NCBI GenBank assembly: GCA_951406725.2
Contig: OX597817.1
Location: 88,536,001-88,600,000 of the forward strand
Direction: 5' to 3'
Length of the DNA stretch: 64,000 nt
Source: Octopus vulgaris
Taxonomy: Eukaryota
Shown: positions 1 to 51,575 of the stretch, one piece after another
Layout of the letters: every line of letters begins with the position of its first letter
Numbering within the stretch: the first letter of the stretch is position 1
Program-made: the position numbers and the translations under genes
The notes under the pieces: generated by a model
Database searches by the model: none
The model's input: the letters and a program-made list of their open reading frames with translations, nothing else
Told to the model about the DNA's origin: nothing

Positions 1-890
1 TATCTTGTATTTCCCAACTTGTTCAGTTTCCAGGCTTCTATTCTACTCAGATCTTATCTTAAAGTCTTCACTTTATTTTGTAGTGTTCTTTTCCACATTT
101 GCTCTTTTTTAATCTTTCCCTGCAAGATATCTAACCTTCTAGTGACTACTGCCCCTCCTACATAAATCAATAAGTTAGTGTCTCCTATATTTTTAGTATC
201 TATCCTACTGACAACAGAATCTACTTTCCTAGTCATTTCTGTCAGCCTCCTTCTGTTGGTGCCTTTTAATGCTGACAATCTTTTTCATACTCCTTAACTC
301 ATTACTTCCTGCAACTCATCCGATATCTTCTCATCTTCCTCACTTAAATCACTTAAGTCACTGGTGCTAGTTGTCCCTTCCTTATTGATAGTACAATTAT
401 TATTTTTTCCCTTAGGTTCTTGTTTGGTTTGAGCTATATCACTTATGTTGTTGTTTGTCTTTCCTACTTCCTGGTCTTTCTTTTCCAGTTCTTATGTGAT
501 ATCTTCTACCTCCAATCCTATCATCCACTTTCTTCTCTTAATAGCATTAGCGTGATCTAATAATCTCTGCTGTATCACTTTAAACATACCCTTCTCTACT
601 CAAAGTGTTAACATCCATTTTCTATAGCCCCTTCTTTTAGGTTCACTTTCTAAGTAGCATTGTATCACTATCCTGTCTTTTTTTTCTGGTCCATTTCCTC
701 CTCCTTGCTCTATTATCTGCTGATGCTGTATTATGATAACAGCTGTAGTCAGTCTACATCTTTACTGAACCACTGCTGAGCGAGAGGCCTTTCCTGAAAG
801 GTCTAGCTTCATTTTCACTGTTACAACCGAGTTTATTCGGAAACTCTTGTCTCTCATAAACTGAGGTAAGGTAACGTTTGTCACCAACAT
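1..890 (-). mobile_element. 5' part of a degenerate R4/Dong-type (RLE) non-LTR retrotransposon, continuing off the window edge
   Basis: Minus-strand remnants read like the N-terminal region of R4/Dong ORFs (..CYLESEPKRRGYRK..; TNLLIYVGGAVV..KKEQMWKRTLQNKVKTLR); many stops. Confidence 0.6.
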
Positions 891-16589: not shown

Positions 16590-18450
16590 TCTATGTTTGA
16601 CTTTTGCTTTATGTCTGTACAAGTTGGCTCCAAGTCTCACCCAGAGACCTCAAGAGACAACAGGTTAGAAGTTCTGTGCCATATATTTGGGTTTTTTTTC
16701 TTTTTTTTTTTCTGGTGTTGTACTAGTGAATGTCTAATACATAAAAAAAAAAAAAATAAATAAATAAATAAAAAAAAAGTTTGTTTTAAACCTTGGGATT
16801 ACATAGAGAGTATTTTGCGTAGGATATGAGCAGTTCCCATGAGCACTATCTTTTGAATTTCTGCCATTTTGGGGTTTCCTGGTATCTGAGTTAGGTAGCA
16901 ATCAGTCCCTTTCGCTATCATTCCCAGGGCACCTATGACAACAGGTATTGTTTTAGTCTTCAGCTTCCACATTTTGCTGATTTCTATTTCAAGATCTTTA
17001 TATTTGCTCAGTTTTTGGTAGGTCATGACAGATACGTTTATATCGATTGGGACAGTCATATCAATGAGGAGGCATGTTCTTTGTCTGAAGTCTTTTAATA
17101 TAATGTCTGGCCTATTTGCATCTATCTTCCTGTCAGTTTGAATGGTGAAGTTCCAGAGGAGTGAGATGTGGTCATTTTCAAGCACAGGAGGTGGATTGTG
17201 TTCCCACCAGTTTTTTTCATGGGGCAAATCCAGGTTTTTGCAAATTACCCAGTGAATATATTGTGCAGCTCTATCATGCCTACTGAGGTACTCTGTAGGC
17301 ACTAGAAGACTGCATTTGGAGACAACATGGTCAATGGTTTCATTTTGTTGTCGGCATACACGACATGTTGGGCTACTGCCGTTCTTTAATATGTTGGCCT
17401 GGTAGTTTCTTGTTGGTAGGCATTGATCTTGAGCTGCTATGATAAACCCCCTGTTTCAGATTTTAAGCCAGAGGCCATTAGCCATTGATGGGTCAGGGCT
17501 TTGTCGATATCTGCATTATTCGCTCTCTTTGGGTTATTTGCCATAGAGAGGTTTTTCTTGCCATTTATTATTCAGAATATCTAAGGCCGCAGTTTTGGCA
17601 CGGGTTTTCATGCGCCTAGCTTTTTCTGTGCTTGTTTCTTGTATATTTATCTCTTATTCCGAAATTGGTTGTATTCGGAATTCACTTAGATATTCCTTTG
17701 CCTGTTTTGTGACTGAGTATGATGCTTTCTTGTTTTCATGTTTTGAGACAAGTTTTAACATCCAGTCGTCAGAGTTTTTCAGGTAGGTATCTAGGCTGAT
17801 TGTGGCAATCTTCATTGTTAATTCCAGTTGTAAAAGTCCATGGCCTCCTTCTTTTCTTGGTAGATAAATTTGTCTTATATCTGATTTAGGGTGGTGCATT
17901 CTATGCATTGTCAACAGTTTCCTTATTTTTCTGTCGAGCTGACATATTTCAGTAATTGACCAGTTAACAATATTGAAACTGTAAGTCACGACTGGTGTGG
18001 CTAATGCATTGATCGCTTCGATCCTGTTTCTTGCATTCAGCTCTGTCTTGAGTATTGCTCTTACTCTTTGATAGCATTCTCTCCTGATCCTTTCCTTCAT
18101 CTCTGAATGCCTTATTCCGTTCCCTTCAATTACCCCTAGGTACTTGTAGCTCTCCGCTGGGTCTAGTTCTTTTATGACATTCTGTTGGTCAAGGTTAACG
18201 TTAGATGTTTCTGTCATTTTTCCTTTGATAAAGGTAGCCTTTGCACATTTATCGAGGCCGAATTGCATTCTGATGTCGTCACTGAATTGTTTGACTATCG
18301 CTAGTAAGCCCTTGAGTTGTTCGTCATTTTTAGCAAAAAGCTTTAAATCATCCATGTAAACGAGATGATTTATATTTTTATCAAACATTTTATACCCGTA
18401 CTGCGCGTCATTGAGCAGCTTTGAGAGAGGTATTAAGGATAAACAATTAT
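16590..18450 (-). mobile_element. Young 5'-truncated R4/Dong-type RLE LINE between (TTA)n tracts
   Basis: RT HLVYMDDLKLFA..QFGLDKC..YKYLG; CRVC..H..SKC; RHD; RPDII..IDM..K..KY; few frameshifts. Confidence 0.95.
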
Positions 18451-18473
18451 GTTTATTATTATTATTATTATTA

Positions 18474-18526
<53 letters not shown>

Positions 18527-18826
18527 TCTACTGTAGGCACAGTTCACCTTTGGAAACAGAAATGTTTCGTTCAACATTCTTAAACAAACCTTATTCAGAG
18601 AGCTTTTGAGTGGGATGGGCTACTTGACCTGAAGAAAATTCATACTGGGTCCCACCTACAAAGTCATGTGCTGTTTATCTTGATATAGGATCACCATGTC
18701 ATGCACATATGGTTGCAGTACATGTGCCTGGTGTATCCTTATCAGATAGGTAGGCATGATGGGTATACTGGACTTCATATATTTTACCCCAGTGTTACTT
18801 TGATGGCATGCGCTGCTCTCTCACTC

Positions 18827-20860: not shown

Positions 20861-21335
20861 ATCTCTGTAAGGCAGACACCCCTCAAAATAGAGTGTCTCC
20901 CACTACCCCTGCAAACAAATTGGATCCCCACACATGCACAGACCCCCAACATTTACATTACACACAAATTACACACAGCATGCTAACAAAAAAAACCACG
21001 ACTTTATCCTTTATACAAAGAAAACAAATCAATGAACACAGCTATATATACCTACACCCCCAGATAGAATTATGCATAAGACACCACTTCACATATCACA
21101 CACCCCATCCTTGCATGAGCACCACATTAATAATACACACCTTCCCCAATTCAAGATAACTCATGCCTGCTTAACAGCACAGCTAACCAAGGAACATAAC
21201 TCTTAACCTAATCCCCTAGCCCTTTTTTTTGTTTCACCACCTTTTTCACAGCTGCCACTGATCGGTTGTGCTAATCCACCTCCAACAATAGAGAGCAGTT
21301 GCCATATTCCTTTCCATATGGGCTAACTCTGATGA

Positions 21336-21608
21336 ACAATTGCAGCGTGGAAGGTGTTTGTAAGCCATTTAAGAAACACACAAAAGCCGTTCGATTCCCT
21401 TCAACATTTAAGTTTAATTTGTCAAAATATTTTCATCGCTTTAAGACTGGGACCTGTTCACTGACAGAAATCCGTGCTAAATGTTGAAGTGAATCGAATG
21501 GCTTTTGTATGTTTCTTAAATGGCTTACAAACACCTTCTACGCTGCAATTGTTTTCATTTCAGCACTCGATCTCAGGTCAAATCACTTGCTATGCAAGTA
21601 CATCTCCA
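21336..21608. mobile_element. 273-bp foldback element with 76-bp inverted arms, 12-bp target-site duplication and hammerhead-like loop (Penelope-derived by inference)
   Basis: Arms 21335-21410 and 21478-21553 (72/76 identical); direct repeat taactctgatga at 21324-21335 and 21609-21620. Confidence 0.75.
21420..21466 (-). ncRNA. Putative minimal type I hammerhead ribozyme, G3:C8 core variant
   Basis: Minus strand UGUCA-GUGAACA-G GUC..GAU-GAAA-AUAU-UU-UGACA: 5-bp helix I, weak helix II, palindromic helix III (AAUAUU). Confidence 0.5.
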
Positions 21609-21671
21609 TAACTCTGATGAGTTATATATGTATATATACATATATATACTGTGTGTATATATACATATATA

Positions 21672-24177
21672 TCATCATCATCATCATCATCATCATCGTT
21701 TAACGTCCGTTCTCCATGCTAGCATGGGTTGGACGGTTCGACCGGGGTTCGAGGCGGTGCTGGCATCGGCCACGAGTCGATTTCGATTTCGATTTTGCTT
21801 GCCCCAACATGTCTTCACAAGCAAAGGGGGTTGGCATGGGTGCCTGTCGTACGGTCGGATTGGAGTATTTTACGTGCCACCAGCACGGAAGCCAGTCGAA
21901 GCGGCGCTGGCATCGGCCACGAGTCGGATAGTGCTTTTTACGTACCACCAGACCAGGGATCCTGGCTGGTTCAATTCGGTTTCGATTTCGCTTGCCCCAA
22001 CATGTCTTCGCAAGCAGGGGGGTTGGCATGGGTGTCTGTCGTCGGATGAGGTTCTATATCGACTTCGCTTGCCTCAACAGGTCTTTGTGTCCAAGGGAGG
22101 AAAGGCATTCATAAGTGGGCTGGGCTCACTTGTCCTGCCTGGTCTTCTCACGTACAGAATATTTCCAAAGGTCTCGGTCGCTGGTCATTTCCTCAGTGAG
22201 GCCTAAAGTTCGAAGGTCGTGCTTCACCACCTCGTCCCAGGTTTTCCTGGGTCTACCTCTTCCACGGGTTCCCTCAACTGCTAGGGATTGGCACTTTCTC
22301 ACACACCTATCTTCATCCATTCTTGCCACATGACCATACCAGCGCAATCGTCTCTCTTGCACACCACAACTGATGCTTCTTAGGTACAACATTTCTCTCA
22401 AGGTGCTAACGCTCTGTCGAGTATGTACACTGACATTACACATCCATCGGAGCATATTGGCTTCATTCCTCACGAGCTTACGCATGTCCTCAGCAGTCAC
22501 AGCCCATGTTTCACTGCCACGTAGCATGGCTGTTCGTACATATGCGTCATACAGTCTACCTTTTACTCTGAGCGAGAGGCCTTTAGTCACCAGCAGAGGT
22601 AAGAGCTCCCTAAACTTTGCCCAGGCTATTCTTATTCTAGCAGTTACACTTTCAGCGCACCCACCCCCACTACTGACTTGGTCACCTAGATAACGGAAGC
22701 TATCAACTACTTCTAGTTTTTCCCCCTGGAAAGTGACGGAAGTTGTTTTCTGCAGATTTTCGGAGGTTAATGCTCCTGAGCATCTGCCACATACAAAAAC
22801 TATCTTCCCAGTTAGCCTACCTTTGACATTGCTGCACCTCTTATGTGTCCATAGCTTACACTGGGTACATCTTATAGAGTTTCTACCTACACCTTTTCTA
22901 CAGATCGAGCAGGGCCATCTTCCTGAAGACATTTGTGGATTGTCTATCTTCCTACTTATTAGTACTTTGGTTTTAGCTAGGTTGACTCTAAGGCCCCTCG
23001 ATTCTAAACCCTCCTTCCACACCTGGAACTTCTCCTCCAGTTCTGATAGTGACTCAGCAATAAGAGCAAGGTCGTCAGCATAGAGGAGCTCCCAGGGACA
23101 GCCTGTCTTGAATTCCTCCGTAATTGCTTGGAGTACTATGATAAATAGGAGGGGGCTGAGTACTGAACCCTGGTGGACCCCAACCTCTACTTTGAATTCT
23201 TCTGTGTACATGTTGCCAACCCTAACCTTACTTACGGCATCTCTGTACATGGCTTGCACAGTCCTCACCAGCCATTCATCTATCCCTAATTTCCTCATTG
23301 ACCACCAGATAAGGGATCGGGGGACCCTATCAAAAGCTTTCTCCATGTCAACGAAAGCCAGGTAAGGGGCTTATCTTTGGCTAGGTATTTCTCCTGCAGC
23401 TGCCTTACCAGGAATATAGCATCAGTGGTACTTTTCCCTGGCACGAACCCAAACTGCATCTCATCTAAACTAACTCTCTCTCTAATTAGTTGGGCTATGA
23501 CCCTCTCCGTAACCTTCATTACTTGATCCAACAGCTTGATACCTCTGTAATTATTTGTATCTAGGGCATCACCTTTACCTTTGTAGCAGTTGACTAGTAT
23601 GCTGCTGCACCAGTCATTGGTTATGACTCCTTCGTGTATCACCTGGTTGACTATACGGGTGACTAGGTTATAGCCGACACTGCCAGATATTTTGAGCATC
23701 TCTGCAGTAATTCCTGATGGGCTTGGGGCTTTCCCTGTCTTCATGCTTCTAATTGCCTTAGCTACCACGGAACTATCAACTCGGATAGCTGGTCCCTCTG
23801 TTGGGTCAACATTCGGCAGACTCTCTTTATCCCATTCATTTTCTTTATTCAGCAACCTTTCATAGTGGCATCTCCAAACCTCTCTCTTTGCATCCTCATT
23901 TAGCGCAAGTGAACCATCATCCATGCGAACACACTTCTCTCCTACCACATCACGATTCTCTCTCACACACTGTCTTGCAACACGAAATACCTCAAGTCTT
24001 TCATCCTCACGGCTCAGAACATTGGCAAATTTTTTCTTATCCGCTTCCCCTCTGGCTAAATAAACCTGTCTCCTATCTTCCCTTCTGGCTGTCTGATACC
24101 ATTCCCTGCTACCACCGTTCTTCCAGTCCTTCCAAGCCTGTCTCTTTTGTCTAATAGCCCTGTCAACCACAGTGTTC

Positions 24178-24180
<3 letters not shown>
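21672..24180 (-). mobile_element. RTE-clade LINE, 5'-truncated, near-intact RT (one frameshift near 23360), 3' UTR and (GAT)n tail
   Basis: NYRGIKLL, QFGF..GKSTTDAIF, KAFDRVP, GVHQGSVLSPLLF, LYADDL, FRYLG, RRLRWYGHV..RGRGRP..W. Confidence 0.97.
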
Positions 24181-24241
<61 letters not shown>

Positions 24242-25179
24242 CCTACCTTAAAATTTACTGTACAACCTATATAAAACTTATCTAAATTATCCTCATCCTT
24301 AACAACGCATTTATAAATTGCATTAGTAATTAGTTAGACCCCCATCAAGGGGACATAATCCATGGTTTCTATAATTACATGGTTTCCCAGGGCCATTCCT
24401 AACATTATTTCTACTACCAATATTACTTGTCCGATTTCCCACATTCACTCCTTCACGTCTCTCATTACTGGGGTTCGATACACCCAGCGGGAGCAACATG
24501 TTGGCATTACTAACCTTAGACGTATCAGAACTTACCTGCTCAGAACCGGGGTTTCCATCAGCAGAATAAATATTTTAAAAAAATGTTTTTTTTAATTTCT
24601 AAAAAATATTTTAATTTCCTCTAAAACTTTTTTAGTCGGTAGATATTTATTTTATTTTTATTTTTACCTTTACTTATTTCATATTTGTCTATTAGGTTTT
24701 TTGGTAGTTTTTGTTTGAATGTTTAGCCGTTTATATTTAAAATTTTTGATAGGCTGTTCTATTAGTATTTTATTCGATTATATACTTTTACTTTCTGTGA
24801 TTTTATATGTATTATTTTTTATGTGTTTTGGAACCATGGTGATTTTTATATATGGTTAAATGTTTGAGGGGTGGTGTTGTATGTAAAGTCGTTGACCCAA
24901 ACTTAATATTTGTTCTATAACCGATTCTTCTTTATCTTCATCTCATTTATATTTGAGCCCTTCTTTAAGTCCTATAAACCTTTTTGTTTCTATTAGAAGA
25001 GACAAATATTATTTCTTGTTATATATATATATATATATATATAACAAAACTATTGAAAAGGTTGCAAGACGCAATGAAAATTTTAGAAAAATAAAAAAGA
25101 AATGATTGGAAATTTTACTGGTGAGTGTGTTAAATTATAAGGCACCAAAAGAGAATGACTCTCCCCAGACACAACAGTA

Positions 25180-25633: not shown

Positions 25634-28600
25634 GAAACACTGACGGGGTTGGAGGCGTGGGTATACTTCTTGCTGAAAAATGGGTAGATAAGGTACTTGA
25701 GGTAATCAGAGTAAGTGACAGAATACTTAAGATTAGAATAGTGCTTCATCATGGATTAGCAACCATTATATCGGCCTATGCCCCTCAGCCAGGGCTACCT
25801 GATGGACAGAAAGACCAATTCTATGACGCCTTACTGCAGACTACCTCGTTGACGAACAACAGAGACCTCTTTGTGGCTGGTGATTTCAATGGGCATGTTG
25901 GAAAACATGCTGGGGGCTTCCATGGTGTACATGGAGGCTATGGCTATGGTTCCCGCAACAAGGAGGGAACCAGGCTCCTGGAGTTCTGCGACGCAAATGA
26001 TCTCATGGTTTGCAACACTAACTTCAGGAAACCTACCAGCCACCTAGTCACCTACCGATCGGGTCGACATACCAGCCAAATTGACTACATCCTTGCCAGG
26101 AAAAGGGAAAGATGGCTGCTTATAAATGCCAAAACCTTCCCAGGCGAAGAATGTACCCCACAACATAGACTGGTAGTTAGTGACTTTAGGATCAGGACTA
26201 AGAGGATGACCAGAAGACGACCAACATGGAGAAGAAGGATCTAGAAGCTTAAAGATCCTGCAAATGGACAGAGATTTAGGGACATATTACTTGAAACCTT
26301 TGACGAAGTAGAAGGGGATAGAGCATCACAGGGTGTAGAAGACAACTGGACGTTTCTAAGGGACAACCTGCTGAGAGCCACTGACCAGATCTGTGTCTGG
26401 TGCAAAGTCCCCTCTCGACCTAGAATAACGTGGTGGTGGAACAATGTTGTAGACAGGGCTATTAGAGAAAAGAGACAGGCTTGGAAGGACTGGAAAAATG
26501 GGGGTAGCAGGGAATTGTATCAGACTGCCAAAAGAGAAGCTAGGAGACAGGTTTATTTAGCCAGAGAGGAAGCAGATAAGAAAAAATTTGCCAATGTTCT
26601 GCGCCGTGAGGACCAAAGACTTGAGGTATTTCGCATTGCAAGACAGTGTGTGAGAGAGAATCGTGATGTGGTAGGAGAGAAATGTGTTCGCATGGATGAT
26701 GGTTCACTTGCGCTAAATGAGGATGCAAAGAGAGAGGTGTGGAGACGCCACTATGAAAGGTTGCTGAATGAAGAAAATGAATGGGATAAAGAGAGTCTGC
26801 TGAATGTCGACCCAACAGAGGGACCAGCTATCCGAGTTGACAGTTTCTTGGTAATTGAGGCAATTAGAAGCATGAAGACAGGGAAAGCCCAGGCCCATCA
26901 GGAATTACTGCAGAGATGCTCAAAATATCTGGTAATGTCGGCTATAGCCTAGTCACCCGTATAGTTAACCAGGTGATACACGAAGGAGTCATACCCAATG
27001 ACTGGTGTAGCAGCATAATAGTCAACTGCTACAAAGGTAAAGGTGACGCCCTAGATACAAATAATTACAGGTATCAAGCTGTTGGATCAGGTAATGAAGG
27101 TTATGGAGAGGGTCATAGCCCAACTATTTAGAGAGAGAGTTAGTTTAGATGAGATGCAGTTTGGATTCATGCCAGGGAAAAGCACCACTGATGCCATATT
27201 CCTGGTAAGACAGCTGCAGGAGAAATATCTAACCAAAGATAAGCCCCTGTACCTGGCTTTCGTTGACATGTAGAAAGCTTTCGACAGGGTCCCCCGATCT
27301 CTTATCTGGTGGTCAATGAGGACATTAGGGATAGATGAGTGGTTAGTGAGAGCTGTGCAAGCCATGTACAGGGACGCTGCTAGTAAGGTGAGGGTTGGCT
27401 ACGAGTACAGTGAAGAATTCCGGGTAGAGGTAGGGGTCCACCAAGGTTCAGTCCTCAGCCCCCTCCTATTTATCATAGTCCTCCAGGCAATAACGGAGGA
27501 ATTCAAGATAGGATGCCCCTGGGAGCTCCTCTATGCTGATGACCTTGCTCTAATTGCTGAGTCACTATCAGAACTGGAGGAGAAGTTTCAGGTGTGGAAG
27601 CAAGGATTAGAATCGAAGGGCCTTAGAGTCAACCTAGCTAAAACCAAAGTCCTAATAAGTAGGAAGGTAGACAAGTCACAAACGCCTTTAGGTAGATGGC
27701 CTTGCTCGATCTGTAGGAAAGGCGTAGGTAGAAACTCTATAAGATGCACCAAGTATAAGCTATGGACACACAAGAGGTGCAGCAACGTCAAGGGAAGGCT
27801 AACTAGGAAGATAGTTTTTGTATGTGGCAGATGCTCAGGAGCAACAAACACCGAAAATGCTCTGAGACCAACTCCCGTCACTTTCCAGGGAGAAAAACTA
27901 GAAATAGTTGATAGCTTCCGTTACCTAGGTGACCAAGTCAGTAGCGGGGGCAGATGTGTTGAAAGTGTAACTGCTAGAGTAAGAATAGCTTGGGCAAAGT
28001 TCAGAGAGCTCTTACCTCTGCTAGGGACAAAAAGCCTCTCGCTCAGAGTAAAAGGTAGACTGAATGATGCTTGTGTACGAACAGCCATGCTACATGGCAG
28101 TGAAACATGGGACGTGACTGCTGAGGATATGCGTAATCTCGCAAGAAATGAAGCCAGTATGCTCCGATGGATGTGTAATGTCAGTGTTCATACTTGACAG
28201 AGTGTAAGTACCTTGAGAGAGAAGTTGGACCTAAGAAGCATCATTTGCTGTGTGCTAGAGAGACGTTTGTGCTGGTATGGCCATGTGGCGAGAATGAATG
28301 AAGATAGTTGTGTGAAAATCAAAAAATCAAAAAATCAAAAAATCAAAAATCAAAATTGATCAACATGAATGGAAATTGTCGCTGTGATATCAGTGTTGGT
28401 GGCACATAAGAGAACCATCCGAACGTGGCCGTTGCCAGTGCTGCCCTGACTGGCTTCCATGCCAGTGGCACGTAAAAAGCACCATCCGATCGTGGCCGTT
28501 GCCAGCCTTGCCTGGCCTCTGTGCCGGTGGCACGTAAAAAGCACCATCCGACCGTGGCTGTTTGCCAGACTTGTCTGGCACCTGTGCAGGTGGCATGTAA

Positions 28601-29428: not shown

Positions 29429-32032
29429 CATCATCATTGTTTAATATCCACCTTCCATGCCAGTATGGGTTGGATGGTTTGACAGGAGGCAGGCAGGTAG
29501 AAGACTACACCAGGTTTCTGTGTCTGTTTTGGCATGGTGTTTATGGTTGGATGCCCTTCCTAACACCAACCACCCCACAGAGTGGACTCAGTGGTTTTTA
29601 TGTACCACCAGCACAAGCAAGGTTGGTTTTGGCATGATTTTTACAGCTGGATGCCCTACCACTTCACAATATAGACTGGATACTTTTTACATGGCACCGG
29701 CAAGGTCACCAAGACAAGGAATTTTTGAGAGGGGAGGAGGCATTGGAGGAGGTGACCATATGTCAGATGATGAAAGGTTATAGTGAGACAGAGACAGAAA
29801 CAGAGAGATAAATTGTAGCAATTGCCAGTGAATGCCTTCAAGGTATGGAGGTCATAATATATGTGGCCAGGTATTGCCAAGAAGGCATGAGTAGGGAGTA
29901 GTGGTGGGGATTGCAGTGACTGGTGAGAACCTGGGTATAAAGTGGGGGAGGGGAAACAGTGATACAGTGAGCAGTGCAGGGAGGGCAGGGATGGCAAGTG
30001 GGAGATAATCATAATGTATGAAGAGGAAATGTGAGGAAGAGAAAAGATTCAGTTTGGAAGAGGAGATGTTGATTGGTTTCTTGAGGTAGGGTGTGTGAAA
30101 ATTTTATCCTTACATATGGGTGGGACATAATTTTTCTAGCACTCAATTTCACTGACATAGGCAGGTCTTCTCTAGAACCTCATATCACCAAACATCTCAG
30201 GCCATTGTCTTTTCTACATGACCTGCAACAGTCCTGAGATCTTCCTGGGTCTCCCTCTTCCACAGGTACCATCCACTTTTAGTCACTGGCACTTCTTTAT
30301 ATAACTGTCTTCATTCATATGCATTACATGTCCAAATCAAAGTAGTCTCCTCTCCTACATGCCACATTTAATTTCTGTTATACCTAACTTTTCTCTCAAC
30401 ACATTTGCACTTTATCTTGTACACTGATGTTGCACATCTTAGCGAAGCATACTGCCTTCATTCCTCTCTAGTCTATGCATGTCTTCTGCATTCTGAGCCT
30501 ATGTTTCACTACCATGGAGTAAAGCCGATCATACACAAGCATCATACAATGTATCTTTCACACTGAGAGAGAGTCCTTTTGTTGCCAACAGAAGTAATAG
30601 CTCTCTGAACTTGTTCCATCTTATTCTTATTCTAGAAACAATACTTTCAAAGCATCTACCACCATTACTAATCTGGTCACCTAAGTAACAGAAACTATCT
30701 ACCACCTCAAGAGAGCCTTCTGGGCATTTGAGAGGGTCTAAGTCTAGAGTTCTCTTAGTGCTTGTTGTTCCTGCACATCTGCCACACATGCAGGTGACAT
30801 TATCTGTTAATCTGCCTGTGATTCCCTTATGTGTCCATTGCTTACACTGGGTGCAGTATATGGAATTACTTCCCACTCCTTTCCTACATATTGAGCAGGG
30901 CCATTTACTTGATGGAAAGAGAGTCTTATCTGCTTTCTCGCTGACAACAACTTCGTTATTTGCTAGGTTAACTTTAAGGCCCTTTGATTCTAGGTTTTGC
31001 TTCCATACTTGGAATCCAGTTTTGAATTCCTCTGTTATGACCTGGAGGACTATGATGAATAAGAGTGTTCTAAGAACTGAGCCCTGGTGAACCCCTACCT
31101 GTATGCTAAATTTATCACTGTATTCATGGCTGACTCTCACCTTACTAACAGCATTGCTGTACATGGCTTTTACAGCTCTAACAAGCCACTCCTAACTTCC
31201 TTAGAGACCACCAGATAACAGCAGGGAACTCTGTCAAAAGCTTTCTCCAGGTCAATGAAAGCTAAGTACAATGGTTTACTTTTGGCCAAATACTTTTCTT
31301 GTAACTGTCTCACTAGGAAGATGGTATCTTTAGTACTCTTCCCAGGAACAAAACTACACAACATCTCATCTAGTTTAATTCTATTCCTAATCAATTGAGC
31401 TCCAACTCCCTCAATAAATTTCATGACCTGGTCAAGCAGTTTGATACCACTGTACTTGTTTCTATCTAAGGCATCACCTTTACCCTTGTAGCAGCTAACT
31501 ATAATACTACTACACCAATCATTGGGGATGACACCTTCCTGAGTAACCTGATTAACTATGTGAGTGACTAGGCTGTATCCCACACCACCGGATATTTTAA
31601 TCATCTCAGCAATGATACCCAATGACATAGGGGATTTCCTTGTCTTCACATCCTTAATTGCCATATCTATTATACTACTATCAATTCTGATGACTGGTCC
31701 CTCAATTGGTTCAATAATTGCAAGACTCTCCCTGTTTCATTCATTTTCCACAGTTAATAACCTTTCATAGTGGCACCTCCATGCATCTTTCTTTTCTGAG
31801 TCACTAAGTGCAAGCATACCATTATCCATTCATGCACATTTCTCATCCACCACATTTCTATTCTCTCTGATACACTGCTTTGCAATCCTGAACACCTCAT
31901 GCCTCTGATCCTCATGCTGTAGAACATTTGCAAATCTCTGCTATTCCTTTCACTATGTAACCATGTCGCCTAGCTTCCCTTTTGGTTACCTGACATAATT
32001 CTCTGCTTCCATAATTTTTCCAGTCTTTCCAG
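29429..32032 (-). mobile_element. Older RTE-clade LINE, 5'-truncated
   Basis: DLEKAFDRVP, GVHQGSVL, CSIC..CTQC; YADD segment deleted; (CAT)n tail at 29429. Confidence 0.9.
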
Positions 32033-32406: not shown

Positions 32407-33695
32407 CGAGGGACGTTCAATAAGTAATGCCTCTGACCCACTTGCAGTTGTTTGATCTAGCTGAAATTTTGCATGTGCAATCATTTATATCTCTATAGAA
32501 TAAATGGCAAATTACAGCTCTGAATTAATTGTGGTTTCTGATTTACAGGTGTTTGAACCGAGTCAAGTGTGAAATGGAGCCTGTTGAGTGTTGAGCAGTG
32601 ATCCGGTTTTTGTATTTGAAAGGACGCACACCACGGGAGACTTTTGATGAAATGAAAGTAACTTGTGGTGATGATGCCCCATCATATGACCTTGTAAAAC
32701 GCTAGCATCGTGAATTCAAACATGGTTGGAACTCTGTGGAAACAGCTCCCAGATCTGGTCGCCCCCTTCTGCCATTGATGAGGCATCTGTCCGTCAAGTT
32801 GAGGCTGCCATTTTGGAAGATCGATGCATAATTATTCGCGAAATAGCCCATGAGGTCAAGATTAGTACCGGGTCTGTGGAAACTATCATTCATGACCATT
32901 TGCATATGCAAAAGGTGTCTGCCAGATGGATTCCCAGGTTGCTCACGCCTTTCCAGAAGCAAGAACGCGTCGAGTGCTCGAGGGTGAATTTGGAGATGTG
33001 CCAAGAAGATGAGTCAAAATTTTTCAAAAGACTGATTACACAAGATGAAACCTGGGTCCATCACGATGATCCAGAGACCAAAGCCCAGTCAATGCAGTGG
33101 AAGCACCATGACTCACCCCCTCCAAAGAAGGCAAGGGTGCAGCCCTCCACTGGCAAGGTCATGCTCACAGTCTTCTGGGACCAGGACGGAGTAGTGATGA
33201 CAGATTTCTTGACAAAGGGTACCACAATTGCAGGAGCCTATTATGCTTCACTTTTGAGGAAATTAAGAGAAGTTATCAAAATCAAGAGGTGGGGTAAGAT
33301 CAGCAAAGGCATCCTCCTCCTACAGGACAATGCTCCGTCCACAACTCGCTTGTCGCCAGATCAGAAGCACAGGCGTATGGCTATGAACTCCTCCCATCCC
33401 CCCTACTTTCCTGACCTTGCACCCTCTGATTTTCACCTCTTCCCAATCATGAAGTTGTTTTTGAAAGGAAAGCGTTTCCCAGATGATGCAGCCTTGATTT
33501 CTGAAGTCACGTTGAGGTTGGAGGACCAAGCTGGGTTCTTCTACAAAAACGGTCTCCAGAGCCGCATCAAATGATAGGAGAAATGCGTAACTCTGGGTGG
33601 TTCCTATGTAGAAAAAGACTAATAACTGTGCCAAGTTTTGTTGCTCTACTGCTATGGGAAGTGGGTCAGGGGCATTACTTATTGAACGCCCCTCG
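32407..33695 (+). mobile_element. Full-length (1289 bp) mariner DNA transposon, D,D34D transposase pseudogene
   Basis: TIRs cgagggacgttcaataagtaatgcctctgacccac / gtgggtcaggggcattacttattgaacgcccctcg with TA duplication; WIPRLL, TQDETW, QDNAP, YFPDLAPSDF; stops and frameshifts after the ATG at ~32574. Confidence 0.95.
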
Positions 33696-40343: not shown

Positions 40344-41558
40344 CAAGGGTTGGCTGAAAAGTTCATAGGCTGACCAAATGAGGTTTATTTTTCATCATAC
40401 ACCCCTTGTGGTCCACACATTGGTGTTGCAGCACTTGGATCCCATTGGTGAAGAAGCTTTCATCCTGTTGCTCAAGAAAGTCATCAACAGCAGCTATAAC
40501 ATAATCATCCCTGCAATACTGGTTCCCAACCAAATGTTTTCTCATATTGGAGAACAGAGGATAGTCAGATGAGGCCAAATCAAGAGTATAGGGAGGCTGA
40601 TCAACCAGTTCAAAGCCACAGTCATGCTCAGCAGCCATTGAAACCAAGGACTTGTGTGCAGGATCATTGCCCTGATGAAACACGACCCCTTCCATCAGTT
40701 TTCCTGGGTATTTGGTCTTGATAGCCCTTTGTAACTGCCTCAGCAAGTTGGCACAGTACTCTCCATTGATGGTGTGACCCTTTTCAAGATAGTCAATAAA
40801 CACAATGCCTTTTGCATCACAAAAAACTGAGGCCATTGCCTTCCCTGTAGATGAAAAGACCTTGGCCTTCTTTGGAGCAGGTGAGGAGGGGTGTTTCCAT
40901 TGCATGGATTGTCTCATTGTCTCTGACTCAAAGTGATGAACCCAAAGCTCATCCTGGGTTAGGAAATGTTCAAAGAAACCAACTAAATCTGTTACAAACA
41001 ATGTCAGATTTTCCCATGATATGATCAGCCATGTACTTTTGATCAGGTCTCAGAAGACATGGCACCCACCCAACAGAAACCTTCATTAGGCCAAGTTCCT
41101 TATGCAGAATATTCTTAACTCTCTCACAAGATATACTAATGCCATTGGCTATTTGATTTATAGTCAATTGCCTATCATCTGTCACCATGTGATGAACACA
41201 TGCAATATTTTCCTCAGTTGTGACAGTTGCAGGATGTCCAGACCTTAGGTCATCTTAATGACTCCCTGCTCCTCCTAAATTCAGCTGCCCACTTTTGCGT
41301 TGTTGATAAAGCTGGACCATCTTCCTCTAATATAACAACTATGTTGGCATGTTGAGTGCTATACCACAATGCTAAATTTTGTTGATTTTCAAGAGAAGCC
41401 TCTACTAGTCACTTTTGAAATCTTTGAACAATCAGATGTCAGTTTAGGTGGAAAGAAACAATACAATTGTTAATAAGAAACATTGAAATTAATGGATGTA
41501 AGATTTTGCAGCTTCAGCAATACTCCTTCATATTCAGGCTATTAACTTTTTAATCCAC
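40344..41558 (-). mobile_element. Degenerate mariner transposon
   Basis: WVPCLL, TQDELWVHHFE, YTLDLASSDYPLF; TIR ta|caagggttggctgaaaagttcataggctg with a decayed complement at ~41535-41558. Confidence 0.9.
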
Positions 41559-43929: not shown

Positions 43930-44002
43930 GTAAGTTAAAAAAAATATATACACTGCTTTTTCTTCATCTCTCATCATTTTGGAGTTGTTCCATTAGGTAT
44001 CT

Positions 44003-44042
44003 GATACTGATGAGAGTGTAAATAACATGAAATGCATATATC
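44003..44042 (+). ncRNA. Decayed minimal type I hammerhead-like motif
   Basis: GAUA-CUGAUGA-gagUGUaaauaACAu-GAAA-UGCA-UA-UAUC; 4-bp helix I, palindromic helix III. Confidence 0.35.
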
Positions 44043-44691
44043 TGTTCATAAGGAGCATTCTGAATGGCTTTGGTGTTTTTCACTTTTTGTTTAAAGTGTG
44101 AATTTTTCTTCTTGACAAATTGCAGTGAAAATAGCCATTTTGCAGGTGAAATATGTTACAAACGTATTTGAACTGATCTAAAAGTTTATTTGTTTTTCCA
44201 CTTTGTAAAGCTTTCTTAAGGATAAATGGAGACTGAACTTCACTCTGATCTGCACAGATGCATAAAGATATGTGTAAAGGTTAGAACATGCAAATCTAGA
44301 ATTCATTATTTACAAGTGTATATTTAACATTAAATGCCATGCAAAAATTTCTTAGATTTTTTTTCAAGATAATCTTTTCTATTTATTGAGTATTATTAAA
44401 ATTATGAAAGTGGGGAGCTGGCAGAATCATTAGCATACCAGACAAAATTCTTAGCAACATTTCTTCTGGCTGTATGTTCTGAGTTCATTGCTGAGGTCTA
44501 CTTTGCCTTTCATCTTTTAAGAGTCAAAAACATAAGTACCATTTGAACACTGGGGTTGATGTATTTGACCTATCCCTCTCCTCCAAAATTTCAGGCCTTG
44601 AGCCTATAGTAGAAAGAATTATTAATATTATAAACTTTAATATATTTGTGTGGTAGTTCATCAACTTGTATGTTTTATTGTTTATCTCCAG

Positions 44692-50502: not shown

Positions 50503-51575
50503 TGTGGTGTTAGTGGTGGTATGGGCTGTGATGAGCTATGTGGTGTTGGTGGAGGGGATTGCAGATGAAGTAGACAGAAATGAAGACTTCAGGGGCCTGT
50601 GGGACAGCCATGTGTGGGCAGGAAGCACGTGTGGTCAGTTCGAGCAGAAATGGCAGCAGGGCAGCATATCGGCTAAGTGGAAATGGGGTGGTGGAAAGGC
50701 ATCATTGTACCATCAAGACCATGGCAGAGAGGGGCCACATTTCACCAATCGAGGCCGTATTTTGGTACAATATGTCGCCCAGGTCAGGACAGGCTGAGGT
50801 GTTGGTGCCACACAGGGCAATATTCAGGTATGAGTGGAGGCATCTGTGTACTGCATCAATGCAACCCGGGGCAGAAGAAGAGCATGCCTTTGTGCAGGTC
50901 AGGGAAGAAGTTTGGGTAAAACCCCCAAACGCACAATGGGGAGAGGGAAGAATAACCTCCATCAATTTGAAGAACAACGTCTCTGTTGATGGTATGCCAT
51001 GCCACATTTTTGATGTACGGAAGATTGTCCATGCTTCAGAGGATGGAACCAGCAGCAGTGGGCAAGAAGATGAAGACAGCAACAGTAGGCAAGAATTTGA
51101 AGACAGCATCAGTAGACAAGATGATGAAACCAGCAGCAGTATGCCAGGAACTCAGGCCAGTCCCAGGGTCGCACGGCAATCACAGAGGGAGTGGAACCCT
51201 CCTCCCTGGTTGGCTGATTATGAAACCAGTTAAGGTGTGAGTTCAGGAGCGAGGAGTGAGTGGGAAAGCTAGTTGAATGATCTGTAGATCAGGATGGGCG
51301 TGTGGTGTTATGGGCTGTGATGAGCTATGTGGTTTTGGTGGAGGTGATTGTAGATGAGGTAGATGGAAGTGAAGACTGCAGGGGCTTGTGGGACAGCCAT
51401 GGGGCATGCGTTGGCAGGAAGCACATGTAGTCAGTTCAAGCAGAAATGGCAGCAGGCAAGGATGTGTTTATTTCTTGACAGTGATTGCTCATCCTGCCTA
51501 GGTCAACAGGTAAGGTCTTTGTATTTCTTTCTCCTGTTTGCTTTTTCTATTGTCCTTTTCCTCCATCACACTACA
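50503..51575 (+). mobile_element. Heavily deleted Ty3/gypsy LTR element (partial 5' LTR, integrase C-terminus, 3' LTR) inside a SINE
   Basis: TG...CA ends (tgtggtgt/acactaca); 5-bp TSD ggttc at 50498-50502 and 51576-51580; LTR repeat ~50510-50660 vs ~51301-51457; integrase AAYRLSGNGVVERHH.TIK. Confidence 0.9.

What the first reader, a model, noticed from the sequence alone, without database searches (positions are those of the whole stretch)
21324..21620. Small mobile foldback element carrying a hammerhead-like ribozyme with a swapped G3:C8 core pair
Seen: a 273-bp insert bounded by a perfect 12-bp direct repeat (taactctgatga), with 76-bp inverted arms (72/76 identical). The 67-nt loop, read on the minus strand, is UGUCA-GUGAACA-GGUC..GAU-GAAA-AUAU-UU-UGACA. 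Established: the hammerhead core is C3-U-G-A-N-G8-A...GAAA..UH; C3 and G8 form a tertiary pair that tolerates compensatory exchange; Penelope-like elements and retrozymes carry minimal hammerheads with a palindromic helix III that work as dimers. Here both positions are swapped together (GUGAACA), helix I closes, and helix III is the palindrome AAUAUU. Inference: a non-coding, ribozyme-bearing mobile unit (Penelope-derived or retrozyme-like) that motif searches for CUGANGA would miss. Helix II looks damaged in this copy.
Basis: partly seen in the sequence, partly recalled or inferred. Interest (0 to 1): 0.75.

Follow-up and report, generated by a model that had tools for sequence, protein, structure and literature searches.

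The report
Swapped-core hammerhead in Penelope insertion
This is a short, back-to-back double copy of the front end of a common Penelope-type jumping gene, and it carries a hammerhead RNA motif whose two paired core letters are swapped in thousands of copies; the motif is likely a real self-cutting RNA kept by selection, but cutting is untested and this copy is worn.

Summary
The 273-bp insert is not a unit that moves as a foldback, nor a retrozyme. It is two antiparallel, 5'-truncated copies of the pLTR/ORF start of a Penelope-like element (telomerase-like RT plus C-terminal GIY-YIG) with about 11,000 arm copies in this genome. The arms end at two fixed sites, about +33 and +90 of the ORF (the PLE 'tail'), and central junctions differ between insertions. 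The minus-strand loop is the family's minimal type I hammerhead. G3:C8 is the family norm (7,411 G3 versus 238 other; 64 of 71 sampled arms), subfamily changes avoid the structure (1/41 versus 9/45), and related PLE families keep C3:G8 or U3·G8 with compensatory helix changes. Copies begin about 22 nt upstream of the core and hardly ever at the cut site (2 of 127), so they derive from uncut RNA. This copy's helix II is damaged. I found G3:C8 in print only as a lab mutant with partial activity; key papers were not held. The scan noted the same swap before, on other DNA of this genome and in other genomes. Cleavage is untested.

The parts
21147..21335 (+). Host repeat ('family E'), an older hammerhead-bearing, PLE-like repeat into which the element inserted; cut off at its own CUGAUGA core
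   Evidence: 649 candidates; 86% identity to L263 over 189 nt; other copies continue into a complete type I hammerhead
21324..21335 (+). Left target-site duplication (12 bp)
   Evidence: 11 of 17 antiparallel insertions outside TA repeats have 11-14-bp duplications
21336..21478 (-). Antisense arm: 5' UTR with hammerhead plus first 11 codons of the PLE ORF; its RNA 3' end is at +33 of the ORF (site 1), its 5' end about 5 nt short of the common start
   Evidence: 90% identity to L090:1186-1325; ATG at 21368
21420..21466 (-). Minimal type I hammerhead motif (helix I 5 bp here, 7 bp in intact copies)
21455..21461 (-). Core positions 3-9 with G3 (21461) and C8 (21456), followed by one extra G before helix II
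21435..21453 (-). Helix II with loop; damaged here (one C-C mismatch, G10.1-U11.1 wobble)
   Evidence: comparison with family copies
21425..21431 (-). Palindromic helix III hexamer and U17; predicted cut between 21425 and 21424
   Evidence: sequence; register by alignment A1; cut site inferred from the hammerhead consensus
21478..21608 (+). Sense arm: 5'-truncated downstream of the hammerhead, ATG at 21520, about 30 codons, RNA 3' end at +89/+92 (site 2)
   Evidence: 91% identity to L090:1253-1384
21554..21608 (+). PLE 'tail': the 55 nt between the two end sites, present in one arm only
   Evidence: bimodal 3' ends; concept from PMC11167929 and PMC8557442
21609..21620 (+). Right target-site duplication; its first 3 nt also match the element's end
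21621..21672 (.). Last 8 nt of the host repeat (after a 7-nt gap relative to other copies) and a TA-rich microsatellite
   Evidence: 42 of 72 insertions have a TA repeat at a flank

Best explanation
The insert is two antiparallel, 5'-truncated copies of the start of a Penelope-like retroelement between a 12-bp target duplication, likely made when the element's own enzyme primed both cut target strands at two internal sites of an uncut transcript, and its loop is the family's minimal hammerhead motif with a family-wide G3:C8 core pair that is predicted to cut weakly and only as a dimer or with protein help. Shown: family membership, linkage to the RT/GIY-YIG ORF, the two end sites, unique junctions, fixation of G3:C8 and covariation with sister families. 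Inferred: (1) transcription starts about 114 nt upstream of the ATG, 22 nt before G3; (2) RT starts internally at about +33 on one target strand and +90 on the other, copies only the RNA's short 5' end, and the two cDNAs are joined head to head, which explains the foldback, the 55-nt tail and why short copies vastly outnumber ORF-start copies; (3) the core passed through a mismatched state, tolerated because cutting is not needed for each insertion, and was compensated; (4) in tandem source elements two motifs pair through AAUAUU and cut after U17. The window copy itself is probably inactive.
For: Linkage: L090 and L089 run from the hammerhead through the same ATG into the ORF; the unit lies downstream of the GIY-YIG end in 23 of 24 long loci. 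Protein: YxDD-type motif, GIY-YIG PF01541 at 25.5 bits (cut-off 22.6); model pLDDT 88.8, top two fold hits are telomerase RTs (E 6e-6, TM 0.26-0.27). Anatomy: in the first 100 hits on C1 (77 insertions, 127 arms), 47 are antiparallel pairs; 3' ends fall at +28..37 (53) or +83..95 (68); 40 of 47 pairs have one arm at each site (34 of 41 after collapsing a 7-fold segmental duplicate). 42 of 127 5' ends lie at -120..-111 and 2 of 127 within 3 nt of the cut site; 11 of 23 arms that start at that point carry an extra G (p 0.002, post hoc). 11,072 hits for the ATG region against 24 for the ORF stretch just downstream. Core: 7,411 G3 versus 238 non-G3; 98 of the first 100 G3 hits have C8; 64 of 71 sampled arms are G3:C8; non-CpG subfamily polymorphisms hit 1 of 41 structural and 9 of 45 free positions (p 0.016; the one structural change keeps a U-G pair). 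Covariation: sister family B (54% aa identity) and metagenome locus L112 (41%) have C3:G8 at the same place; 18 of 30 loci have C3:G8 and 12 have U3-G8; on alignment A1 (8 hand-picked rows) 10 of 16 pairs change on both sides, 0 of 500 shuffles as high, and 3:8 pairs in 8 of 8. Literature: C3G/G8C partly restores cleavage of an anole PLE hammerhead, cleavage needs the PLE protein, mutants still insert, both strands are extended, two RT start sites define the tail (PMC11167929).
Against: No cleavage data. Almost no copies start at the predicted cut site, which fits slow or dimer-only cutting but also a ribozyme that no longer cuts. Folding predicts G3 pairing with U17 as an eighth helix I pair in intact copies, which would compete with G3:C8. 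The helix III palindrome is very weak (-0.2 kcal/mol) and the predicted dimer minimum is not the double-hammerhead fold. Alignment A1 is small, hand-picked and related by descent, so its shuffle test is not a probability. The 5' cluster also looks like a 3' splice site (branch-like motif, pyrimidines, CAG), so it need not be a start site. No run on record as RNA holds the sequence, so transcription is not shown. The ATG region is under coding constraint but the hammerhead is not; still, a protein-binding role for the UTR could also explain conservation.
Confidence: 0.78

Rival explanations
1. Same PLE origin, but the hammerhead is catalytically dead or negligible; the fold is kept as a binding or translation-control hairpin in the 5' UTR and the double swap drifted in.
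For: 2 of 127 arms start near the cut site; predicted G3-U17 mispairing; weak helix III; hammerhead mutants still insert in vitro (PMC11167929); sister family B has a further core change, A9 to C.
Against: All other core letters are intact while flanking sequence has diverged beyond BLASTN recognition from sister families; two transversions that restore a Watson-Crick pair between two formally unpaired positions are unlikely without selection on the catalytic fold; 3:8 pairs in all 8 rows of A1.
Confidence: 0.17
2. A small non-autonomous foldback (MITE-like or SINE-like) element that is itself copied as a 273-bp unit.
For: Long inverted arms, target duplications, thousands of copies of similar size.
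Against: Junctions are insertion-specific; the only repeated junction sits in 1.2-kb duplicated flanks; arms are asymmetric by the 55-nt tail; 28 of 77 insertions have one arm only; the same layout occurs in ORF-bearing copies.
Confidence: 0.03
3. A retrozyme: a tandem, non-coding unit that self-cleaves, circularises and is re-inserted.
For: Type I hammerhead with palindromic helix III; one locus holds a tandem run of about 175-nt units (L103); a preprint derives animal retrozymes from PLE pLTRs (part 1 of 5).
Against: Sampled copies are dispersed, not tandem (1 of 77 is '++'); ends map to the ORF-internal sites and the 5' cluster, not to cut-to-cut monomers; the sequence is the ORF start of an autonomous element.
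Confidence: 0.02

Closest known systems
Minimal type I hammerheads in pLTRs of metazoan Penelope-like elements (Cervera and de la Pena 2014, PMC4209133; read parts 1-2 of 4 and supplement parts 1-2 of 3)
   Same: Position in the pLTR, short helix I without loop, extra nucleotide between 9 and 10.1, G10.1-C11.1, palindromic helix III, U-rich 5' flank, motifs on opposite strands 100-700 bp apart.
   Different: Core is G3:C8. The 56 motifs listed in their Fig. S3 have C3 or U3 with G8 or A8; the only 3:8 swap described is U3-A8.
Poseidon PLE of Anolis carolinensis, PAc (Frangieh et al. 2024, PMC11167929; read parts 1-2 of 4)
   Same: Hammerhead at the pLTR-ORF junction, two RT start sites inside the ORF that define the tail, AT-rich targets, both strands extended, uncut RNA as main template.
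   Different: G3:C8 there is an engineered double mutant with partial activity; here it is natural. Start sites are at about +33 and +90, 55-60 nt apart; the ATG lies 56 nt past the cut site; the ORF has a Cys-rich linker before GIY-YIG.
C-terminal EN+ PLEs of the Neptune/Nematis type (Craig et al. 2021, PMC8557442; passages and supplement part 54 of 59)
   Same: RT then CX2-5CxxC linker then GIY-YIG; 5' truncation, inverted 5'-truncated copy, tail at one end, (TA)n preference.
   Different: Clade not resolved here; linker spacing resembles Nematis by eye; tail is about 55 nt rather than 30-40.
Natural U3-A8 hammerheads (Perreault et al. 2011, PMC3088659; passages)
   Same: Natural compensatory change at the 3:8 pair.
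   Different: U3-A8 needs two transitions and can pass through a U-G wobble; G3:C8 needs two transversions and a mismatched intermediate (my inference).
Metazoan non-LTR retrozymes (bioRxiv 10.64898/2026.07.22.740005, part 1 of 5 read; PMC7229834 seen in search listing only)
   Same: Type I hammerhead, pLTR ancestry.
   Different: Not tandem, contains the ORF start, not copied as a unit.

Membership tests
Penelope-like element (EN+, C-terminal) | Single ORF with telomerase-like RT | tested here: met
   998-aa model, top fold hits are TERTs; Pfam RVT_1 not hit for this protein and only weakly for 2 of 5 homologues
Penelope-like element (EN+, C-terminal) | C-terminal GIY-YIG endonuclease | tested here: met
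   PF01541, 25.5 bits over cut-off 22.6
Penelope-like element (EN+, C-terminal) | pLTR continuous with ORF start and repeated after the ORF | tested here: met
   L089, L090; unit downstream of the ORF in 23 of 24 loci
Penelope-like element (EN+, C-terminal) | Inverted 5'-truncated copy and a tail at one end | tested here: met
   47 of 77 insertions antiparallel; 40 of 47 with one arm at each end site
Penelope-like element (EN+, C-terminal) | Placement in a named clade (Neptune, Nematis, Poseidon, Hydra) by RT tree | not tested
   No named reference proteins in hand; only the Cys linker was compared by eye
Minimal type I hammerhead ribozyme | Core U4 G5 A6 A9, G12 A13 A14, A15.1-U16.1, H17 | tested here: met
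   each is the majority letter in at least 69 of 71 arms
Minimal type I hammerhead ribozyme | Canonical letters C3 and G8 | tested here: not met
   G3 and C8
Minimal type I hammerhead ribozyme | Watson-Crick pair between positions 3 and 8 | tested here: met
   64 of 71 arms G:C; C:G, U-G, G:C across related families
Minimal type I hammerhead ribozyme | Helices I and II supported by covariation | tested here: met
   4 of 7 and 3 of 5 pairs change on both sides in 8 rows; outer two helix I pairs are not kept; small hand-picked set
Minimal type I hammerhead ribozyme | Palindromic helix III allowing a dimer | tested here: inconclusive
   perfect palindrome in at least 69 of 71 arms per position, but duplex energy only -0.2 kcal/mol and the dimer minimum is another fold
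Minimal type I hammerhead ribozyme | Self-cleavage after H17 | not testable with these tools
   needs an in vitro assay; copy ends give no sign of it (2 of 127)
Non-LTR retrozyme | Tandem non-coding repeats, one hammerhead per unit | tested here: not met
   1 of 77 insertions has two same-strand copies; arms contain the ORF start
Non-LTR retrozyme | Circular RNA monomer | not testable with these tools
   only assembled contigs were available
MITE / foldback DNA transposon | Terminal inverted repeats with a fixed internal structure copied as a unit | tested here: not met
   inverted part is not terminal on the right; junctions unique

The most novel reading that the evidence does not exclude
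An active natural hammerhead with a purine-3:pyrimidine-8 core, fixed in a retroelement family of thousands of copies after crossing a catalytically dead intermediate; and a genomic record showing that a PLE enzyme primes the two target strands at two different internal sites of a capped, uncut RNA, so that the ribozyme does not make the template but acts as a dimer- or protein-gated switch on tandem transcripts.
Probability: 0.4. Interest if true: 0.6.

Novelty: new variant of a known kind. Interest (0 to 1): 0.42.

Why it matters
Descriptor searches for hammerheads fix C3/G8 (or U3/A8), so families like this are missed and PLEs may be wrongly called ribozyme-free. A compensated double transversion is good evidence that the catalytic fold of PLE hammerheads stays under selection, which is an open question because these motifs cut poorly and are dispensable for insertion in vitro. 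One genome offers C3:G8, U3-G8 and G3:C8 versions on homologous scaffolds, a ready natural series for kinetics. The insertion anatomy gives in-genome support for two-site internal priming and a simple cause for PLE inverted repeats and SINE-like short copies.

Tried and rejected
Rfam found no hammerhead in the window, nor in L256, L207 (damaged core) or the canonical-core L112, nor in three family E copies; so the Rfam miss is not due to the swap alone. The miRNA hits reflect the long hairpin only. A guessed pattern for the ORF continuation gave 3 irrelevant hits; one search was a wrong frame. No RNA holder listed; contigs laid on the family and on family B cannot show expression, ends or splicing; one search listed no other letter at G3 or C8 in four runs with four organism labels, but showed only 40 of 86 rows. 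My strict descriptor missed family B's motif because of A9C; it was found by eye. The peak of 22 5' ends at -99 is an alignment artefact of the reference copy and was not counted as an end; some ends at -111 run into the other arm. No C3:G8 subfamily of family A was seen (0 of the first 100 of 238 non-G3 hits; 5 were U3-G8). Targeting of other hammerheads was considered because the duplication is a CUGAUGA core; family E matched none of the other fetched loci at E 1e-8, so I treat it as coincidence. Single-sequence PDB search gave nothing; the profile gave only two bacterial defence RTs. Literature searches for a natural G3:C8 core gave only engineered cases (PMC11167929; PMC3884650, passages). 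Lunse et al. 2017, Przybilski and Hammann 2007, Martick and Scott 2006 and Weinberg et al. 2015 were not held and not read; the first, with its supplements, could already contain G3:C8 motifs.

Full report
Observation. The direct repeat, the 273-bp insert, the 76-nt arms and the minus-strand motif are all present as described. The window lies on C4 of a 2.8-Gb animal genome; the best named protein relative of the parent ORF is from Octopus vulgaris (54%). The neighbourhood is nested repeats: an older hammerhead repeat on the left, a TA run and LINE-like ORF fragments on the right.

The family. The insert has 3,397 first-look candidates. Among the 30 best, both outer ends are constant, but the central junction differs from copy to copy: 21 distinct junctions among 22 that could be parsed, and the window's own junction occurs in no other fetched locus. 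So the foldback is not inherited as a unit. Read in one direction, the two arms are overlapping pieces of one sequence: about 22 nt of leader, the hammerhead, 56 nt, an ATG and the first codons of an ORF.

The parent. Longer copies carry a GIY-YIG ORF end about 1 kb upstream of the hammerhead. L076 holds a 998-aa stretch with an RT, a Cys-rich linker and GIY-YIG (PF01541 above cut-off). Its model (pLDDT 88.8) has telomerase RTs as top fold matches. L089 and L090 continue without a break from the hammerhead region through the ATG into this ORF. This is a C-terminal EN+ Penelope-like element; its clade was not resolved.

Insertion anatomy. I took the first 100 of 11,072 exact hits of a 23-mer at the ATG, which are 77 insertions with 127 arms. 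47 are antiparallel pairs, 28 single arms, 2 other. 3' ends fall at +28..37 (53) or +83..95 (68), 6 elsewhere. 40 of 47 pairs have one arm at each site (34 of 41 after collapsing seven copies that share duplicated flanks). The same holds in all 12 of 24 long loci that show both arms. The window copy fits: +33 on the left, +89/92 on the right. Duplications of 11-14 bp were found in 11 of 17 antiparallel insertions outside TA repeats, and 42 of 72 insertions touch a TA repeat. 5' ends cluster at -120..-111 (42 of 127) and only 2 lie within 3 nt of the predicted cut site. 11 of 23 arms beginning at the cluster have an extra G, as expected from a copied cap (p 0.002, post hoc); the site also resembles a splice acceptor. 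Frangieh et al. (PMC11167929, parts 1-2 of 4) showed that a PLE enzyme extends both target strands, starts at two sites inside the ORF that define the tail, and uses uncut RNA. Craig et al. (PMC8557442, passages) describe the inverted copy, tail and TA bias as typical. I infer that each target strand is primed at a different site and the two short cDNAs are joined head to head.

The ribozyme motif. G3:C8 is the family state: 7,411 hits with G3 against 238 with another letter, and C8 in 98 of the first 100 G3 hits; 64 of 71 arms from 71 insertions (12 duplicate loci dropped) are G3:C8. Subfamily polymorphisms other than CpG decay hit 1 of 41 structural positions (keeping a U-G pair) and 9 of 45 free ones, mostly loop II (p 0.016). 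Intact copies fold into helices I and II (z -3.5, -2.9); the window copy does not. Related elements keep the same layout with other letters: family B in this genome (54% aa) has C3:G8 with A9C; a 16-mer search gave 508 hits against 3 controls, of whose first 30 loci 18 are C3:G8 and 12 U3-G8, with homologous ORF starts; metagenome locus L112 (41% aa) has C3:G8. On 8 hand-picked rows, 10 of 16 pairs change on both sides and 3:8 always pairs. Since the outgroups have C3:G8, the swap is probably derived. Against activity: predicted G3-U17 mispairing, a very weak helix III and no copy ends at the cut site.

Comparison and novelty. Every feature except the 3:8 letters matches the minimal PLE hammerheads of Cervera and de la Pena (PMC4209133), whose 56 listed motifs include no G3:C8. 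Natural U3-A8 is published (PMC3088659, passages). G3:C8 appeared in my searches only as a lab mutant: partial rescue in the anole PLE motif and a remark in PMC3884650 (passages). Searches. Lunse et al. 2017 and three other papers were not held, so prior report cannot be excluded. PMC6765202, PMC6155905 and PMC10085705 were seen as passages and added nothing on this point. The scan's own notes record the same swap several times in this genome and in others; I read them after forming my view and do not count them as support.

Verdict. An ordinary, worn PLE insertion that exposes a real natural core variant of a known ribozyme class. New variant of a known kind; interest 0.42; cleavage is the missing test.

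Noticed in passing
window 21147-21335 and 21621-21628; L258-L268: The host repeat (family E, 649 candidates) carries a canonical C3:G8 type I hammerhead with a long helix II, a 2-bp-plus helix III and an internal loop in helix I; it also forms antiparallel pairs with two end sites (L260/L263), so it is probably another PLE end. The 12-bp duplication is its helix I strand plus CUGAUGA.
   Followed up: partly
L114:1442-5377, L115: Sister PLE family B: many near-identical 1,311-1,312-aa open frames with a long Asn-rich insert, tandem copies, and a hammerhead with C3:G8 but A9C; looks young.
   Followed up: partly
L177, L181-L185, L193, L194, L197, L200: Older related family D with U3-G8 core in most sampled copies and the same helix I as family A; whether U3 is ancestral in it was not tested.
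   Followed up: partly
L175-L203 (17 loci): Family C with C3:G8 whose helix I closes imperfectly next to the cut site (extra nucleotides after C17).
   Followed up: no
L195 and four further hits: Family A copies with U3-G8, more than independent mutation would give; possibly a small sublineage.
   Followed up: no
L103:1744-3070: Tandem run of about seven 175-nt family A units, a possible seed for a retrozyme-like array or natural hammerhead dimers.
   Followed up: no
L161, L206, L239, L240, L244, L245, L250 (C1): One insertion carried in at least seven copies of a larger duplicated segment (92-97% over 1.2 kb).
   Followed up: partly
L039 minus strand, after the TA run: A different PLE RT ORF (about 400 aa) abuts a family A copy in the same TA microsatellite.
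   Followed up: no
window 16802-18619, 22129-24242, 25636-28194, 30532-31191: LINE-like RT/endonuclease ORF fragments; the one at 22129-24242 (minus) ends near the (TCA)n run beside the finding.
   Followed up: no
window 32714-33571, 40366-41049, 50574-51230: Two mariner-like transposase remnants and one integrase-like remnant (judged by eye from translations).
   Followed up: no
window 44001-44045: A CUGAUGA...GAAA pattern with a closing helix I but no clear helix II; probably chance.
   Followed up: no
P0057: An annotated dynein regulatory complex subunit 6-like isoform matches 15% of the PLE protein at 66% identity: possible exonised PLE piece or annotation artefact.
   Followed up: no
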